A program made the position numbers. A stretch of 64,000 nt of DNA from an uncultured Trueperaceae bacterium. Lineage in GTDB: Bacteria > Deinococcota > Deinococci > Deinococcales > Trueperaceae. Below, one piece after another: positions 14,701-17,700 of the stretch. Positions within the stretch are counted from its first letter, which is position 1; each line of letters opens with the position of its first letter. The stretch lies in contig CAWFFU010000003.1 of the NCBI GenBank assembly GCA_963815215.1, forward strand, positions 512,001 through 576,000, in the 5' to 3' direction.

Positions 14701-17700
14701 TGCACGCGACGAGCGCCACGACCAATGGCAGCACCGACAGCAACAGCACCTCGCCACGGCGCCGACGCCCTACGCCGACGCGGCTCACGGCCGAGCCGGC
14801 GGGAGGCCCCACCGCACCCTCATGACGTCGCATCCGAGGCCGCGAGGTCGACGGCCAGCAGCGACCACTCGCCGTCGCGTTCGACCCGGCAGCGTGCAAC
14901 CGTGGGCAGCGCCTGTCTCACGATCGCCTCCAGCCGCGTCAGGATGCCCGTCAGCAGCAGCACACCGTCCGGGTTCAGGCGTTCCAGGTAGGCAGGCATG
15001 AGCGCTGCATGGAGTTCGGCGTAGAGGTTGGCGACGACGACGTCGAAGCGAGACGGCAGATCGGGGTGATCGACACTCCCTTGCAGGAAGCGCGCGCGGG
15101 AACGGTTGAGCACGGCGTTGCGCCGCGCCACCGCGACGGTGGCGGCGTCGGTGTCGACCCCGACGGCCAGGCTCGCGCCCAACCGATCGGCCGCGACCGC
15201 GAGGATGCCGGAGCCGGACCCCACGTCGAGCACGCTACGGTCCACCAGCTCACGCCCAGCCAGTGCCGCCAGCGCGAGTCGCGTGGTCTCGTGGTGCCCG
15301 GTACCGAAGGCGCTCCCGGGGTCGAGCCACACCACCTGCTCCCCCGCCGCCAGGCTGGCGCGGCGGTGGGTCGGCGCGACCACCAGTGGGCCCACCCGCA
15401 CCGGCCTGAGCTCGGCGCGGTAGGCGGCCACGTGATCGATCGCCTCGACGTCCTCCCAGCTTCCCTCGAGCCCCACCTCGACGCGCTGCTCGAAGTACGC
15501 CACGATCTCGGCACCCTTCGGCCCCGACGCCTCCACCACCCCCACCGAGCCCAACTCGAACAGGCGTGCTACCTCCGGACTCTCCGCCTCGAGCCGACCC
15601 CGCATCCGGAACGCCTTCAACCCGACCACCTCACGGCGCCGGCTCCAACTCCGCCACGCGCTCTTCGCCGGTGACGATCTCGAAGCCCAGCCGCTCGCCC
15701 TCTCGCAGGTAGAACGCGATGTCCGCGGTGCGCGTGGAGGGGCCCAGGCTGCGACGATCGAAGGCATGGGCGGCGGTCATGATCATGGTCTCGGCCATGC
15801 AGGCGGGAACGTACCCATCCCCGAACCGGATGTCGATGCGCGAGCGCATCTCCCCCGGCGGGCGCACCACCCCACCCGGGACGATCTGCACGCCCGGGAC
15901 CTCGCGAACGCTGGGGTGCACGTCGCTTGGCCTTCCCAGATCGAAGATCCAGGCACCCGGCCGGACATGCTCGGGTCGCAGCACCGGCGCCGGGTCGGAG
16001 GTCGCCGTGAACACCAGCTCGGCACCCGCCACGGCAGCGAGGTCGGTCGTGGCCACGATGCGCGTGTCCGGGTACTTGCGGGCGAGGGTGGCAGCGCTGC
16101 GTCGCAGCCGCTCCGCGTCACGGCCCACCAGGATCAGCTCGTGGACCTCGGGGGCGATCATGCGCGCGACCCCGAACGCGACCACGCCGTTGGCGCCGAC
16201 CACGGCCGCGGTGGCGTGGCGCAGCGTGCCGCCGGCCGCCGCGAAGCGCTCGAGCAAGCCGGGCACGGCCGCGCGCACGCTCGCCGCCGTGTACGCCCCT
16301 CCGTTGGTGACGGCGATCTCGGGAACCGCGCGCTGCACCTCCTCGCCCTTGCCCCCGACGGTCGACCAGAACGCCCCCAGGCCGACCGCCTCGGCGCCGA
16401 GCTCGTGCGCCAAACGGGCGCCTTGCACCGCCATCCTCAGCGCGATGTCGGGGTGAGCCGCGAACTGATCGGGCAGCATCGGGCCGCCGATGAGGAGCAC
16501 CCGCATGCGTCGGCCGTCGGGCAGCCGGATGCCCTCGATGACCCCCTGGCTCTGGGGCCGCATGCGCAGCATGATCCGGCGCAGCGCTGACTCGGGCAGC
16601 AGGCCCCGCGCCGCGAGGTGGCGGAGCCAGCGCTGGCTGGGCGGCTGCCACAGGTCGTCCACGGTCATCGGGTGCAACAGGAAGGCGCACAGTACGGCGT
16701 CGCGATCGAGCCCGCGCACCGCCGGCGGCTCGCCCAGACGCGCCTCGGTGCCGTCACGCACACGAGCCACCGCCGCCTTCTGGCGCCAGCCACCCGCGAG
16801 AGCGATGAGCGCGGCGGCCACAGCGGCCGTTACCGGAGCCGCGCCCGACAGCCAGGCCGCCGTGGCGGCGAGCGCCAGCACCGTCAGCCCGCTCGCGGTG
16901 GCCAGAACCACGTAGCGGCGCGCCGCGAGCACCGCCGCGTAGGTCCAGATCGGTGCGGCCAGCGCCAGCCACGGGAGCGAGCCCGCGACCGAGAGCCCCG
17001 CCAGAGCACCGAGCAGCACGCCGTTGCCGCGACCCCGCAGCGGTCTCGGGCGGCCAGGCAGGTGCAGCGGGTAGAGGTGGCCGAGGTAGACGGCCAGCGC
17101 CCCGAGCGGCGCGATGGGCACCAGCACCACGACGACGGCGCCCTTCAGGACGTCGAGTGCGAACGCCGCCAGGGCCGCCGGAGCGCCCACCATCCGGTAG
17201 ACGTTCTCCACGCCGATGAGGTGGGGGTTGACCTCGGCCGGCTCCGAACCCGACACCCAGCGAACCAGGGTGGAGCCCAATGGCAACGACCCGACCAGCC
17301 ACGCCACCAGCATCCCGACGACCGTTCCGATGAACCCATGCATGCGCTGCCCATTGTAGGCTGCGCACCGCCGCTGCGGTCCCGGGGGCCACCGGGCGCC
17401 GCCCGTCGACGCACGCCTGCGTACCCGCCGAGCCCGCAAGCGGCACACCGTACAATGGCCTGCGTGGAGAGCCGCACACCCCCCCATAACCTCGATGCGG
17501 AACAGAGCGTCCTGGGAAGCATCCTGCTCGACAACGAGACCTACGCCTCGCTGGAAGGGATGCTGGCGGCGGATCACTTCTACAAGGAAGGGCATCGCAA
17601 GATCTTCCGGGCCATCGAGCGTCTGTTCCGGCGCGGCGACCCCATGGACCTGGTGACCCTCACCGAGGAGCTCCGGCAGTCCGGTGAGCTCGAGAGCGTG

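What a model noticed while it worked through the whole genome (the two positions that open the first line are those of the whole stretch)
15631..17343. Phylum-wide fusion of a PlsY-like membrane acyltransferase with an acyl-ACP-reductase-like domain: candidate maker of th [...]
Gene g00553 (570 aa) joins a PlsY-like seven-helix acyl-phosphate acyltransferase domain to a soluble domain that matches cyanobacterial long-chain acyl-ACP reductase (AAR) and the thioester-reductase part of PigE, with the catalytic cysteine and NAD(P) loop invariant; a normal PlsY (g00100) and PlsX exist besides. I read it as a membrane 'acyl-phosphate reductase' that turns the PlsX product into fatty aldehyde, the missing first step to the long-chain alkylamine of the N-glyceroyl-alkylamine phosphoglycolipid that is the signature lipid of Thermus and Deinococcus. 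No gene for that lipid is known, and a PlsY-coupled fatty aldehyde synthase would also be a new route to fatty aldehydes/amines [...]
Evidence so far: pfam.tsv/call 99: G3P_acyltransf 13-193 (E 1e-21), Shikimate_DH-type Rossmann 373-487. PDB sequence search: residues 288-537 match PigE 4ppm (E 3e-11) and AAR 6jzu/6jzq (E 2e-5, chain 63-302 of 341); residues 11-204 match PlsY 5xj5 (E 5e-5); in the printed alignments query P-A-C515-M-A-E lies on AAR F-A-C-F-A-E (C294, the residue changed in entry 6jzz 'AAR-C294S') and PigE N-G-C-M-A-E. AlphaFold2 of the whole protein with 11 sequences: pLDDT 86.0, pTM 0.83; Foldseek PDB: ranks 1-5 and 7 AAR (6jzu_A E 2e-16, TM 0.70 of the target, 362 columns), then the TAD domain of the carmabin pathway (9e56, E 3e-13); PlsY 5xj5-5xj8 for the N-terminal part (TM 0.75-0.79 of the target). 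search_genomes: full [...]
(Added by a program. Inside this text positions count along the whole contig: contig position 512,001 is position 1 of the stretch shown here. "Call 12" and the like, gene names such as g00115 and contig names such as C1 are that model's own, and its searches are not shown. The text may have been shortened before it was handed on; [...] marks where a part breaks off. The agent that wrote the report below was given it as the finding of a first reader that could run no searches.)

Follow-up and report, generated by a model that had tools for sequence, protein, structure and literature searches.

The report
PlsY fused to acyl-ACP-reductase-like enzyme
This gene joins a membrane lipid-building domain, which has lost its usual glycerol-phosphate pocket, to a likely fatty-aldehyde-forming reductase; nearly all Deinococcus-Thermus bacteria sampled carry it, but its proposed role in their signature lipid is untested.

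Summary
Window 15631-17343 (-) encodes a 570-aa protein with a complete PlsY fold (residues 4-203) and a complete acyl-ACP-reductase (AAR) fold (218-561). The AAR catalytic cysteine (C515), the dinucleotide loop and two arginines of the NADPH 2'-phosphate pocket are conserved.

The fusion was found in 198 of 201 sampled genomes of the phylum. It is not confined to the phylum:
- Full-length relatives at 46-57% identity to a Bacillota-MAG member (P0133) carry Armatimonadota or Bacillota MAG names.
- A more distant clade carries Patescibacteria names.

In Armatimonadota the fusion is the only PlsY gene (10 of 10 carriers tested), and 9 of 9 read keep the PlsY substrate residues. Every sampled Deinococcota genome (101 of 101) has at least two further PlsY-family genes. 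There the fusion's glycerol-3-phosphate pocket is remodelled, and the acyl-phosphate-contacting Thr41 is an invariant Glu (87 of 87).

This pattern suggests that acyl-phosphate links the two domains. My best reading is a membrane acyl-phosphate (or acyl-thioester) reductase that makes fatty aldehyde, at confidence 0.35. Nothing found here ties it specifically to the N-glyceroyl-alkylamine lipid: gene neighbourhoods differ between families and mostly hold housekeeping genes. Direction, substrate and product need enzymology.

The parts
15631..17343 (-). Whole gene, 570 aa plus stop: PlsY-like domain fused to AAR-like domain
16735..17334 (-). PlsY-fold membrane domain, residues 4-203
   Evidence: VIA-align to 5xj7: Z 21.2, rmsd 2.4, 182 of 193 aligned, model 4-203. 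Pfam PF02660 13-193.
17206..17208 (-). Codon of Glu46, at the position of PlsY Thr41 (the acyl-phosphate carbonyl contact). Glu in 87 of 87 Deinococcota fusions read; never Glu in 114 Armatimonadota/Bacillota-type fusions.
16693..16734 (-). Short linker, residues 204-217, between the two folds
   Evidence: aligned ranges; secondary structure
15661..16692 (-). AAR-fold domain, residues 218-561, covering all three AAR subdomains
   Evidence: VIA-align to 6jzu_A: Z 34.4, rmsd 2.9, 323 of 341 aligned. Foldseek E 2.4e-17.
16177..16197 (-). Dinucleotide-binding loop G383-A-N-G386-V-V-A389, on AAR G162-A-T-G-D-I-G168
   Evidence: alignment; G383 and G386 invariant in A2 and 114 of 114; motif from PMC7089970
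15799..15801 (-). Codon of Cys515, the equivalent of the AAR C294 / PigE C296 acyl-enzyme nucleophile
   Evidence: alignments; invariant in A2; at least 95% in the 82 phylum sequences; 114 of 114
17353..17358 (-). TACAAT, a -10-like hexamer ending 9 nt before the ATG. Read by eye; possibly a leaderless transcript.
   Evidence: sequence. The consensus scan found no full -35/-10 promoter.
14820..15629 (-). prmA (ribosomal protein L11 methyltransferase) directly downstream. The in-frame GTG at 15629 lies 1 nt after the fusion's stop codon.
   Evidence: Same order in L044.
17479..18792 (+). dnaB, divergently transcribed upstream neighbour (start approximate)
   Evidence: Same arrangement in L044.

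Best explanation
The protein is a membrane-embedded acyl reductase descended from a bifunctional PlsY-AAR enzyme.

Inferred mechanism:
1. The PlsY-derived seven-helix domain no longer acylates glycerol-3-phosphate. It still binds the head group of a fatty acyl-phosphate (the PlsX product) at the cytoplasmic face of the membrane.
2. The acyl group passes to Cys515 of the AAR-type domain as a thioester.
3. NADPH reduces the thioester, and a fatty aldehyde leaves into the membrane or to a next enzyme.

Shown here: both folds are complete, the Cys and nucleotide-binding residues are conserved, the G3P pocket is remodelled, and a canonical PlsY and PlsX exist separately.

Inferred only: the acyl donor, the direction of the reaction, the use of NADPH, and the fate of the aldehyde.
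For: (1) Fold. A full AAR fold and a full PlsY fold sit in one confident model: pTM 0.91; Z 34.4 and Z 21.2.

(2) Reductase residues.
- C515 lies on AAR C294.
- R408 and R412 lie on AAR R189 and R193, two of the three 2'-phosphate pocket arginines; G383 and G386 lie on the GATGDIG loop (residue roles from PMC7089970).
- All of these are at least 95% conserved in 82 phylum sequences.

(3) Family chemistry. The tested relatives form an acyl-Cys intermediate and release an aldehyde: AAR, the PigE N-domain and the TamH TR domain (PMC7089970, PMC8341465, PMC9594044). GluTR, which PMC8341465 cites as a possible structural relative, is described there as working the same way.

(4) Loss and retention pattern.
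- In 10 of 10 fusion-bearing Armatimonadota genomes the fusion is the only PF02660 gene.
- In the 9 fusions read from those carriers, the Ser35, Thr41, Asn42, Arg45, Lys104, His177 and Asn180 equivalents are kept (one has Ser for Thr41).
- In Deinococcota, 101 of 101 genomes have at least 3 PF02660 genes.
- In the Deinococcota fusion the Ser35 equivalent is Ser in only 4 of 82, and the His177 equivalent is Tyr or Phe in 52 and His in 17 of 82.
- In the same 82 sequences, the His92 equivalent, Asp64, Lys67, and Gly106 of loop 3 (Gly104 in 71) are 82 of 82 (roles from PMC5700162).
- So what stays conserved is the acyl-phosphate side of the site, not the G3P side.

(5) Chemistry, from established knowledge rather than from any call: Cys-dependent NADPH reduction of acyl-phosphates is known in aspartate-semialdehyde dehydrogenase, ArgC, ProA and GAPDH.
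Against: - Thr41, one of only two side chains that bind acyl-phosphate in PlsY, is an invariant Glu here. Lys104 is Arg, and the Gly102 equivalent is Arg103. The acyl-phosphate site is therefore changed as well.
- In AAR the Cys sits at the centre of the protein and is reached through the NADPH/CoA cleft. I had no model coordinates, so I could not check whether the two sites face each other.
- No member of the AAR family is known to use acyl-phosphate. The term 'acyl-phosphate reductase' occurs in 0 papers of the library.
- The 2'-phosphate pocket would equally fit the 3'-phosphate of CoA, so an acyl-CoA or acyl-ACP donor is not excluded.
- Where the fusion is the sole, intact PlsY (Armatimonadota; also the Patescibacteria-type loci beside gpsA), a drain of acyl-phosphate to aldehyde has no obvious purpose.
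Confidence: 0.35

Rival explanations
1. An ordinary AAR-type thioester reductase (acyl-ACP or acyl-CoA to aldehyde). The PlsY-derived domain would serve as the membrane dock at the product exit, taking the place that the partner enzyme holds in AAR-ADO, GluTR-GSAM and PigE.
For: - Every tested relative uses a thioester, and GluTR is described as using an ester (glutamyl-tRNA); each hands its aldehyde to a docked next enzyme.
- The three-arginine pocket also binds the 3'-phosphate of CoA in AAR.
- The PlsY-like domain joins directly to the AAR N-terminal subdomain, which carries the tunnel exit in AAR.
Against: - A mere anchor would not keep Glu46, Asp64, Lys67, His89, Arg103, Arg194 and Glu200 invariant (Lys189 in 80 of 82) inside the former active site across five families.
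- The AAR residues Arg73 and Lys80 of the partner-docking helix are Pro298 and Met304 here.
Confidence: 0.2
2. The AAR-like domain works the other way or without net redox. It would make acyl-phosphate, either by phosphorolysis of the acyl-Cys515 thioester formed from acyl-CoA or acyl-ACP, or by GAPDH-like oxidation of an aldehyde. That acyl-phosphate would feed PlsY-type acyl transfer. In Deinococcota the acceptor would no longer be G3P.
For: - Fused domains often catalyse consecutive steps, and the ancestral partner is an intact PlsY that consumes acyl-phosphate.
- The two Patescibacteria-type loci have the fusion directly upstream of gpsA, the usual phospholipid context. The two loci are close relatives of each other.
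- CoA and NADPH share one cleft in AAR.
Against: - PlsX is present in the own genome and in 4 of 5 fusion-bearing Armatimonadota genomes, so acyl-phosphate supply is already covered.
- There is no precedent for this reaction in the family.
- In Deinococcota Arg408 completes the AAR-type 2'-phosphate pocket, though that pocket would also fit CoA.
Confidence: 0.15
3. The aldehyde serves a lipid other than the alkylamine lipid, for example long-chain 1,2-diols, fatty alcohols, waxes or ether lipids. Alternatively the protein acts as a sensor or regulator of acyl flux into phospholipid.
For: - Long-chain 1,2-diols are reported for Thermus and Meiothermus and tentatively for Truepera (PMC3072082).
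- Relatives occur in Armatimonadota, Bacillota MAGs and Patescibacteria; I know of no report of the alkylamine lipid in those groups, and I ran no paper search for it.
- The AAR-like domain is also found fused to a PlsC-type acyltransferase, to SRPBCC lipid-binding domains and to PilZ domains.
Against:
- A purely regulatory role does not explain the invariant catalytic Cys and nucleotide loop.
Confidence: 0.12

Closest known systems
Cyanobacterial acyl-ACP reductase AAR (Synechococcus elongatus; 6JZQ, 6JZU, 6JZY, 6JZZ)
   Same: - The whole three-subdomain fold: Z 34.4, 323 of 341 residues aligned.
- The catalytic Cys, the dinucleotide loop and the two arginines R189 and R193 align.
   Different: - About 21% identity.
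- TIGR04058 scores 32 bits against a cut-off of 450.
- AAR is soluble and stands alone; this protein is fused behind a membrane domain.
- The ADO-docking residues Arg73 and Lys80 are not kept.
- No aldehyde-deformylating oxygenase context was seen around the gene; ADO itself was not searched for.
Thioester-reductase domains of PigE (prodigiosin) and TamH (tambjamine)
   Same: - Best sequence matches: NCBIfam PigE E 4.5e-24, 4ppm E 3.4e-11.
- Cys515 lies on PigE Cys296.
- These domains make aldehydes that become amines.
   Different: - In PigE and TamH the domain is fused to a class-III aminotransferase. Here no aminotransferase is fused or consistently adjacent.
- The score is 85 bits against a cut-off of 850.
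PlsY, acyl-phosphate:glycerol-3-phosphate acyltransferase (Aquifex aeolicus; 5XJ5-5XJ9)
   Same: - Seven-helix fold: Z 21.2, 182 of 193 residues aligned.
- The FLDxxKG Asp and Lys, His92 and the glycines of loop 3 are kept.
   Different: - Changed positions: Ser35 to Ala/Pro, Thr41 to Glu, Lys104 to Arg, His177 to Tyr/Phe/His/Gln; Arg45 and Asn180 are variable.
- TIGR00023 scores 48 bits against a cut-off of 137.
- A canonical PlsY is encoded elsewhere in the genome.
Putative terminal amidation domain (TAD) of the carmabin pathway (9E4S-9E56)
   Same: AAR-like fold with an invariant Cys beside NAD: Z 30; Foldseek E 2.1e-14.
   Different: - The TAD N-subdomain is described as a macrodomain fold.
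- TAD is NAD-specific and sits at the end of NRPS modules.
- Its proposed chemistry is amide formation, and its activity has not been shown (preprint 10.1101/2024.10.28.620694; abstract and Discussion read).
Acyl-phosphate reductases of amino-acid metabolism (aspartate-semialdehyde dehydrogenase, ArgC, ProA); recalled from general knowledge, no call
   Same: The proposed chemistry: Cys attacks an acyl-phosphate, and NADPH reduces the resulting thioester to an aldehyde.
   Different: - Different folds and families.
- Short, soluble substrates.
- No membrane domain.
Fatty-acyl reductase / acyltransferase fusions of ether-lipid synthesis (Myxococcus ElbD, ciliate FAR-acyltransferase fusion); recalled from memory, not checked in any call
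   Same: A lipid reductase is joined to a glycerolipid acyltransferase in one polypeptide.
   Different: - Those fusions use SDR-type reductase domains and PlsC/GNPAT-type acyltransferases, not the AAR and PlsY folds.
- No ether-lipid genes were looked for here.

Membership tests
AAR / PigE-type acyl reductase (COG5322-like) | Three-subdomain AAR fold | tested here: met
   VIA-align 6jzu_A: Z 34.4, rmsd 2.9, 323 of 341 aligned, model 218-561. Foldseek E 2.4e-17.
AAR / PigE-type acyl reductase (COG5322-like) | Catalytic cysteine at the AAR C294 / PigE C296 position | tested here: met
   C515 in the alignments. Invariant in A2. 114 of 114.
AAR / PigE-type acyl reductase (COG5322-like) | GxxGxxG dinucleotide loop and Arg pocket for the 2'-phosphate (R189, R193, R314) | tested here: met
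   - The loop reads G383-A-N-G386-V-V-A389, with the third Gly replaced by Ala.
- R408 and R412 align to R189 and R193 and are at least 95% conserved.
- The R314 equivalent was not aligned directly. R530 is conserved, but assigning it to R314 is my inference.
AAR / PigE-type acyl reductase (COG5322-like) | Scores above the curated equivalog cut-offs (TIGR04058 AAR; NF053554 PigE) | tested here: not met
   32.4 bits against 449.7, and 84.8 bits against 850. The protein is a relative, not an equivalog.
AAR / PigE-type acyl reductase (COG5322-like) | NAD(P)H-dependent reduction of an acyl thioester to an aldehyde | not testable with these tools
   Needs an enzyme assay.
PlsY (acyl-phosphate:G3P acyltransferase) | Seven-helix PlsY fold and a Pfam PF02660 match above the gathering score | tested here: met
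   78 bits against 24.1. Z 21.2, 182 of 193 aligned.
PlsY (acyl-phosphate:G3P acyltransferase) | G3P pocket: Ser35, Arg45, Lys104 and Asn180 clamp, plus Ser142 and His177 (PMC5700162) | tested here: not met
   - Window protein: Pro40, Arg50, Arg105, Ala191, Gln188.
- Across 82 phylum sequences: Ser at position 40 in 4; His at position 188 in 17.
- The Ser142 equivalent was not mapped.
PlsY (acyl-phosphate:G3P acyltransferase) | Acyl-phosphate site: His92, the Thr41 hydroxyl, and the loop-3 phosphate hole | tested here: inconclusive
   His89 is 82 of 82, Gly106 82 of 82 and Gly104 71 of 82. But Thr41 is Glu in 82 of 82 and the loop reads R-G-R-G.
PlsY (acyl-phosphate:G3P acyltransferase) | Scores above the TIGR00023 equivalog cut-off | tested here: not met
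   48.1 bits against 137.2.
Biosynthesis of the N-glyceroyl-alkylamine phosphoglycolipid (no defined gene family) | Gene distribution matches lipid distribution and is specific to it | tested here: inconclusive
   - Present in 198 of 201 genomes of the phylum.
- Relatives also occur in Armatimonadota, Bacillota MAGs and Patescibacteria, whose lipids are not known to me.
- Only the Glu46 form is phylum-specific: 87 of 87 against 0 of 114.
Biosynthesis of the N-glyceroyl-alkylamine phosphoglycolipid (no defined gene family) | Conserved clustering with an aminotransferase, glycosyltransferase or phosphatidyltransferase | tested here: not met
   - Neighbours differ by family and are mostly housekeeping genes.
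- The PLD-like neighbour occurs only in genus g24: 32 of 38, and 0 in the other families sampled.

The most novel reading that the evidence does not exclude
The Glu46 form specific to Deinococcota is the committed enzyme of the N-glyceroyl-alkylamine branch.
- The AAR-type domain turns PlsX-made acyl-phosphate into fatty aldehyde, the precursor of the long-chain alkylamine.
- The remodelled PlsY-like pocket does PlsY chemistry with the roles swapped. A membrane-held alkylamine, with its ammonium group placed and deprotonated by Glu46, attacks a soluble glyceroyl-phosphate-type acyl-phosphate held by the conserved Arg and Lys residues. This makes the amide bond.
- A separate aminotransferase would sit between the two steps.
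Probability: 0.12. Interest if true: 0.88.

Novelty: new variant of a known kind. Interest (0 to 1): 0.6.

Why it matters
- According to a 2022 paper on Thermus thermophilus, the enzymes that form the third hydrophobic chain of its phosphoglycolipid, and those that replace that lipid's polar head, had not been identified. The window protein is a near-universal, uncharacterised membrane enzyme in that phylum, so it is a concrete candidate to knock out and assay.
- Fatty acyl-phosphate reduction would be a new activity for both parent families. It would also be a new route from fatty-acid synthesis to fatty aldehydes and amines.
- The contrast between two lineages is a clear case of subfunctionalisation. 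In Armatimonadota the fusion is the sole, intact PlsY. In Deinococcota there are extra PlsY genes and a remodelled pocket. This contrast shows which residues to mutate.
- Databases currently name the protein 'glycerol-3-phosphate acyltransferase' or 'predicted amino acid dehydrogenase'. For the Deinococcota form both names are probably wrong.

Tried and rejected
- **Gene neighbourhood as a guide to function.** I examined 15 Deinococcota loci and 9 Armatimonadota loci. Nothing lipid-related is conserved.
  - Trueperaceae: dnaB, then the fusion, prmA and rsmE.
  - Deinococcus: NnrD, DUF4388, the fusion, a PLD-like gene and ispH.
  - Thermaceae and g30: L20, the fusion, futalosine hydrolase and mqnA.
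  - g27: the fusion, a serine-acetyltransferase-like gene and an SDR.
- **The PLD-like neighbour as the phosphatidyl-transfer enzyme.** Rejected as a general partner. It was found in 32 of 81 genomes, all of genus g24.
- **The PlsY-like domain as a mere anchor.** Disfavoured because polar residues inside the pocket are invariant.
- **Neighbourhoods of the extra PlsY paralogues.** No lipid genes were found. One paralogue group lies beside a LacI-type regulator.
- **The search of earlier findings.** Nothing to show.
- **ESM Atlas.** It returned only the protein's own cluster.
- **Complex prediction on the two halves.** The queue was full at every try and the job never ran. I had no model coordinates, so I could not measure how the two active sites face each other.
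- **Whether Patescibacteria that carry the fusion lack PlsX or Fak.** This could not be tested because I held no genome handle for them.
- **Literature.** No paper on the fusion was found, and none on an 'acyl-phosphate reductase'.
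Full report
**1. The observation**

The minus-strand ORF 15631-17343 encodes 570 residues starting MHGFIG. 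The frame stays open upstream to 18054. That stretch lies opposite dnaB in DNA of about 70% G+C, so I accept the 570-aa gene.

A TACAAT hexamer ends 9 nt before the ATG. The consensus scan found no full promoter and no terminator between 14600 and 17700.

- Pfam G3P_acyltransf 13-193 (E 1.1e-21) and Shikimate_DH 373-487 (E 8.2e-10).
- NCBIfam PigE 288-536 (E 4.5e-24), PlsY TIGR00023 at 48 bits and AAR TIGR04058 at 32 bits. All are far under their equivalog cut-offs.
- PDB sequence hits to PigE 4ppm (E 3.4e-11), AAR 6jzu (E 1.8e-5) and PlsY 5xj5 (E 4.8e-5).

Counting back in those printed alignments puts Cys515 on AAR Cys294 and PigE Cys296. It puts Arg408 and Arg412 on AAR Arg189 and Arg193, and G383/G386 on the AAR GATGDIG loop. 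The roles of these residues come from passages of PMC7089970 and PMC8341465.

**2. Structure**

With a 66-sequence alignment (A2), AlphaFold2 gives pLDDT 93.1 and pTM 0.91.
- Foldseek ranks AAR first (6jzu_A, E 2.4e-17, TM 0.75 of target). Next come the carmabin TAD (9e56_A, E 2.1e-14), then PlsY (5xj7, TM 0.79) and GluTR.
- VIA-align gives AAR Z 34.4 with 323 of 341 residues aligned on model 218-561, and PlsY Z 21.2 with 182 of 193 aligned on model 4-203.

The protein is therefore a whole PlsY fold plus a whole three-subdomain AAR fold, joined by about 14 residues. I had no coordinates, so I could not check how the two active sites face each other. The complex tool never accepted the job because its queue was full (ten tries).

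**3. Distribution**

The fusion was found at near full length in 198 of 201 sampled genomes of the phylum: f1 37 of 40 plus the own genome, f2 92 of 92, f3 57 of 57, f4 9 of 9 and f5 2 of 2. The three misses are all in f1, at 100, 92 and 92% completeness. Source names on the window's closest relatives place it in Trueperaceae/Deinococcales.

The fusion is not confined to the phylum.
- An all-against-all search gave 2118 relatives at E up to 1e-3. They include full-length PlsY-reductase proteins at 23-29% identity with strong canonical PlsY scores of 134-154 bits.
- The few named ones among these are Candidatus Berkelbacteria, a 'Patescibacteria group' bacterium and one unclassified bacterium.
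- A closer set, 46-57% identical to a Bacillota-MAG member (P0133), carries 12 Armatimonadota or Armatimonadetes names and 3 Bacillota or Firmicutes MAG names among the 120 listed.
- In a sample of the phylum of an Armatimonadota record, 11 of 151 genomes hold a full-length fusion.
- Five other genomes (three of them Armatimonadota by record title) have instead a separate 360-390-aa reductase homologue, and three of those five also showed a separate PlsY-like match.

Two trees bear on origin.
- A reductase-domain tree was built from 134 rows. I dropped 21 of the 154 candidate proteins because they lacked a reductase match longer than 220 positions. The tree puts the Deinococcota/Armatimonadota-type clade (12 rows) and the Patescibacteria-type clade (23 rows) on one side of a branch with SH-aLRT 99. 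Of those 35 rows, 32 are PlsY-fused. Five further fusions lie elsewhere in the tree.
- A quick PlsY-domain tree (FastTree, no supports read) nests the Deinococcota fusions inside the Armatimonadota-type fusions.

The same reductase domain also occurs in other arrangements:
- alone;
- fused to class-III aminotransferases (PigE-like);
- fused to an aminotransferase plus an AMP-binding enzyme;
- fused to SRPBCC and PilZ domains;
- fused, in one protein, to a PlsC-type acyltransferase.

**4. The PlsY-like pocket**

According to PMC5700162 (passages), PlsY binds its two substrates as follows.
- Acyl-phosphate: His92, the Thr41 hydroxyl, and the backbone amides of loop 3 (Lys104-Ala107).
- Glycerol-3-phosphate: Ser35, Arg45, Lys104, Asn180, Ser142 and His177.

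I aligned 82 fusions from five families of the phylum: the window sequence plus 81 loci (f1 27, f2 23, f3 22, f4 8, f5 2). Of the positions at least 95% conserved, 133 in all, 22 lie in the PlsY-like part.

| PlsY residue | Fusion position | Residues seen in 82 sequences |
|---|---|---|
| Ser35 | 40 | Ala 51, Pro 20, Val 6, Ser 4, Thr 1 |
| Thr41 | 46 | Glu 82 |
| Arg45 | 50 | Arg 56, Lys 10, other 16 |
| Lys104 | 105 | Arg 77, Lys 4 |
| His177 | 188 | Tyr 29, Phe 23, His 17, Gln 6 |
| Asn180 | 191 | Asn 54, Ser 12, Ala 10 |

Asp64, Lys67, His89, Arg103, Gly106, Arg194 and Glu200 are 82 of 82.

Five more Trueperaceae fusions had matched only from about residue 80. They turn out to carry a 40-60-residue insertion, and they also have Glu46. 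That brings Glu46 to 87 of 87.

In 114 Armatimonadota/Bacillota-type fusions:
- Glu never occurs at position 46.
- About half keep the canonical residues: Ser 50, Thr 50, Arg 57, Lys 105, His 99, Asn 53.
- Cys515, G383, G386, Arg412 and Arg530 are 114 of 114.

**5. The key contrast**

In 10 of 10 fusion-bearing genomes of the Armatimonadota sample, the fusion is the only PF02660 match, at 147-154 bits. The eleventh carrier was not tested. PlsX is present in 4 of the 5 tested. Nine of nine fusions read keep the Ser35, Thr41 (one has Ser), Asn42, Arg45, Lys104, His177 and Asn180 equivalents. In those genomes the fusion must be the working PlsY.

Two closely related Patescibacteria-type metagenome loci have gpsA directly after the fusion. 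One of the two has a broken frame.

In Deinococcota, 101 of 101 sampled genomes have three to five PF02660 genes: a canonical PlsY at 148-182 bits, one or more divergent paralogues, and the fusion. The own genome has a canonical PlsY on contig 8, a second paralogue on contig 3, and PlsX on contig 11.

The simplest reading is subfunctionalisation. Once a separate PlsY existed, the fusion kept only what its second function needs. What it kept is the acyl-phosphate side of the pocket (His, the glycines of the loop, the Asp-Lys motif) and the entire reductase. What it lost is the G3P side. This argues that acyl-phosphate, or at least a phosphate-bearing lipid head group, is what the two domains share. 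It does not tell the direction of the reaction.

**6. Mechanism**

The tested relatives AAR, PigE-N and TamH-TR transfer an activated acyl group to the conserved Cys and reduce the thioester with NAD(P)H to an aldehyde. GluTR, which PMC8341465 cites as a possible structural relative, is described there as doing the same. For AAR and GluTR the papers describe hand-over of the aldehyde to a docked next enzyme; for PigE this is proposed.

Reduction of acyl-phosphates by a Cys and NADPH is textbook chemistry in other folds: ASADH, ArgC, ProA and GAPDH. This is general knowledge and comes from no call.

I therefore put an aldehyde-forming reductase first, with acyl-phosphate as donor, at 0.35. The rivals are:
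- a plain thioester reductase docked on the membrane (0.2);
- an acyl-phosphate-forming or reverse reaction (0.15);
- another lipid product or a regulatory role (0.12).

Points against my first choice:
- the Thr41-to-Glu change lies in the acyl-phosphate site itself;
- the catalytic Cys is buried in AAR;
- the arginine pocket would equally fit CoA;
- draining acyl-phosphate has no clear purpose in lineages where the fusion is the sole PlsY.

The TAD preprint (abstract and Discussion read) shows that this fold may also support non-reductive attack of a nitrogen nucleophile on the acyl-Cys. This keeps amide-forming readings open.

**7. The link to the signature lipid**

A 2022 paper states that the enzymes forming the third hydrophobic chain of the Thermus phosphoglycolipid are not identified (PMC9636437, passages). 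My searches found no later assignment (listings only).

In favour of the link:
- near-universal presence in the phylum;
- a phylum-specific pocket (Glu46);
- family precedent for an aldehyde-to-amine route (PigE, TamH).

Against the link, or missing:
- relatives occur in three other lineages;
- there is no conserved clustering with an aminotransferase, glycosyltransferase or phosphatidyltransferase;
- the PLD-like neighbour is confined to one genus;
- the Truepera genome paper says its polar lipids were not compared with those of Deinococcus and Thermus, and reports tentative 1,2-diols.

I put the alkylamine reading, including a speculative N-glyceroyl-transfer role for the remodelled pocket, at about 0.12.

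**8. Verdict**

This is a real, well-conserved and apparently undescribed enzyme architecture. It is a new variant of known kinds, AAR-family reductase plus PlsY. It offers a clear experimental handle and an informative evolutionary contrast. Phylum specificity is refuted. The lipid assignment remains a hypothesis.

Supplementary files of the cited papers were not opened.

Noticed in passing
G000:C8:100058-100585 (L001) and G000:C3:23012-23572 (L002), outside the window; phylum sample: The PlsY family is expanded in this phylum. All 101 of 101 sampled genomes have 3-5 PF02660 genes: a canonical PlsY, one or two short divergent paralogues, and the fusion. Thermaceae and family f4 have four or more. 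The own-genome paralogue on contig 3 has Met at the Thr41 position. The paralogues form two clades in a quick tree.
   Followed up: partly
Proteins P0171, P0162, P0205, P0217, P0220, P0264: The same AAR-like reductase domain occurs in other arrangements. It is fused to a PlsC-type acyltransferase, to SRPBCC lipid-binding domains, to PilZ plus SRPBCC (one with an HTH domain), to class-III aminotransferases, and to an aminotransferase plus an AMP-binding enzyme (1396 aa).
   Followed up: no
L207:2721-5430 and L208:8001-10712: In two related Patescibacteria-type metagenome loci, the PlsY-reductase fusion is followed by gpsA, whose start overlaps the fusion's end. In L208 the fusion's frame is broken after about residue 314 under table 11; the cause was not examined.
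   Followed up: partly
L210-L214 (five Trueperaceae genomes), between fusion residues 75 and 80: An insertion of about 40-60 residues lies between helices of the PlsY-like domain. It explains why these genomes matched only from about residue 80.
   Followed up: yes
L029:9718-11232, L030:9802-11289, L031:6098-7558: A 486-505-aa protein with a C-terminal PLD-like domain and no NCBIfam name lies directly downstream of the fusion in three Deinococcus loci. It has several paralogues per genome and was found only in genus g24 (32 of 38).
   Followed up: yes
window 17353-17358 (-): TACAAT lies 9 nt upstream of the start codon with no Shine-Dalgarno-like spacing. It may mark a leaderless mRNA. The listed abstract of PMC12340547 describes such leaderless expression for this phylum; I read only that listing.
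   Followed up: no
window 14345-15001 (+): A 218-aa ORF between secDF and prmA has no Pfam or NCBIfam match. It partly overlaps prmA on the other strand and may not be a gene.
   Followed up: partly
window 20880-24382 (+): pilM, pilN and pilO, followed by a 374-aa ORF without a Pfam match, lie downstream of ftsH. The gene order nusA, infB, secDF, prmA, fusion, dnaB, ftsH is housekeeping throughout.
   Followed up: no
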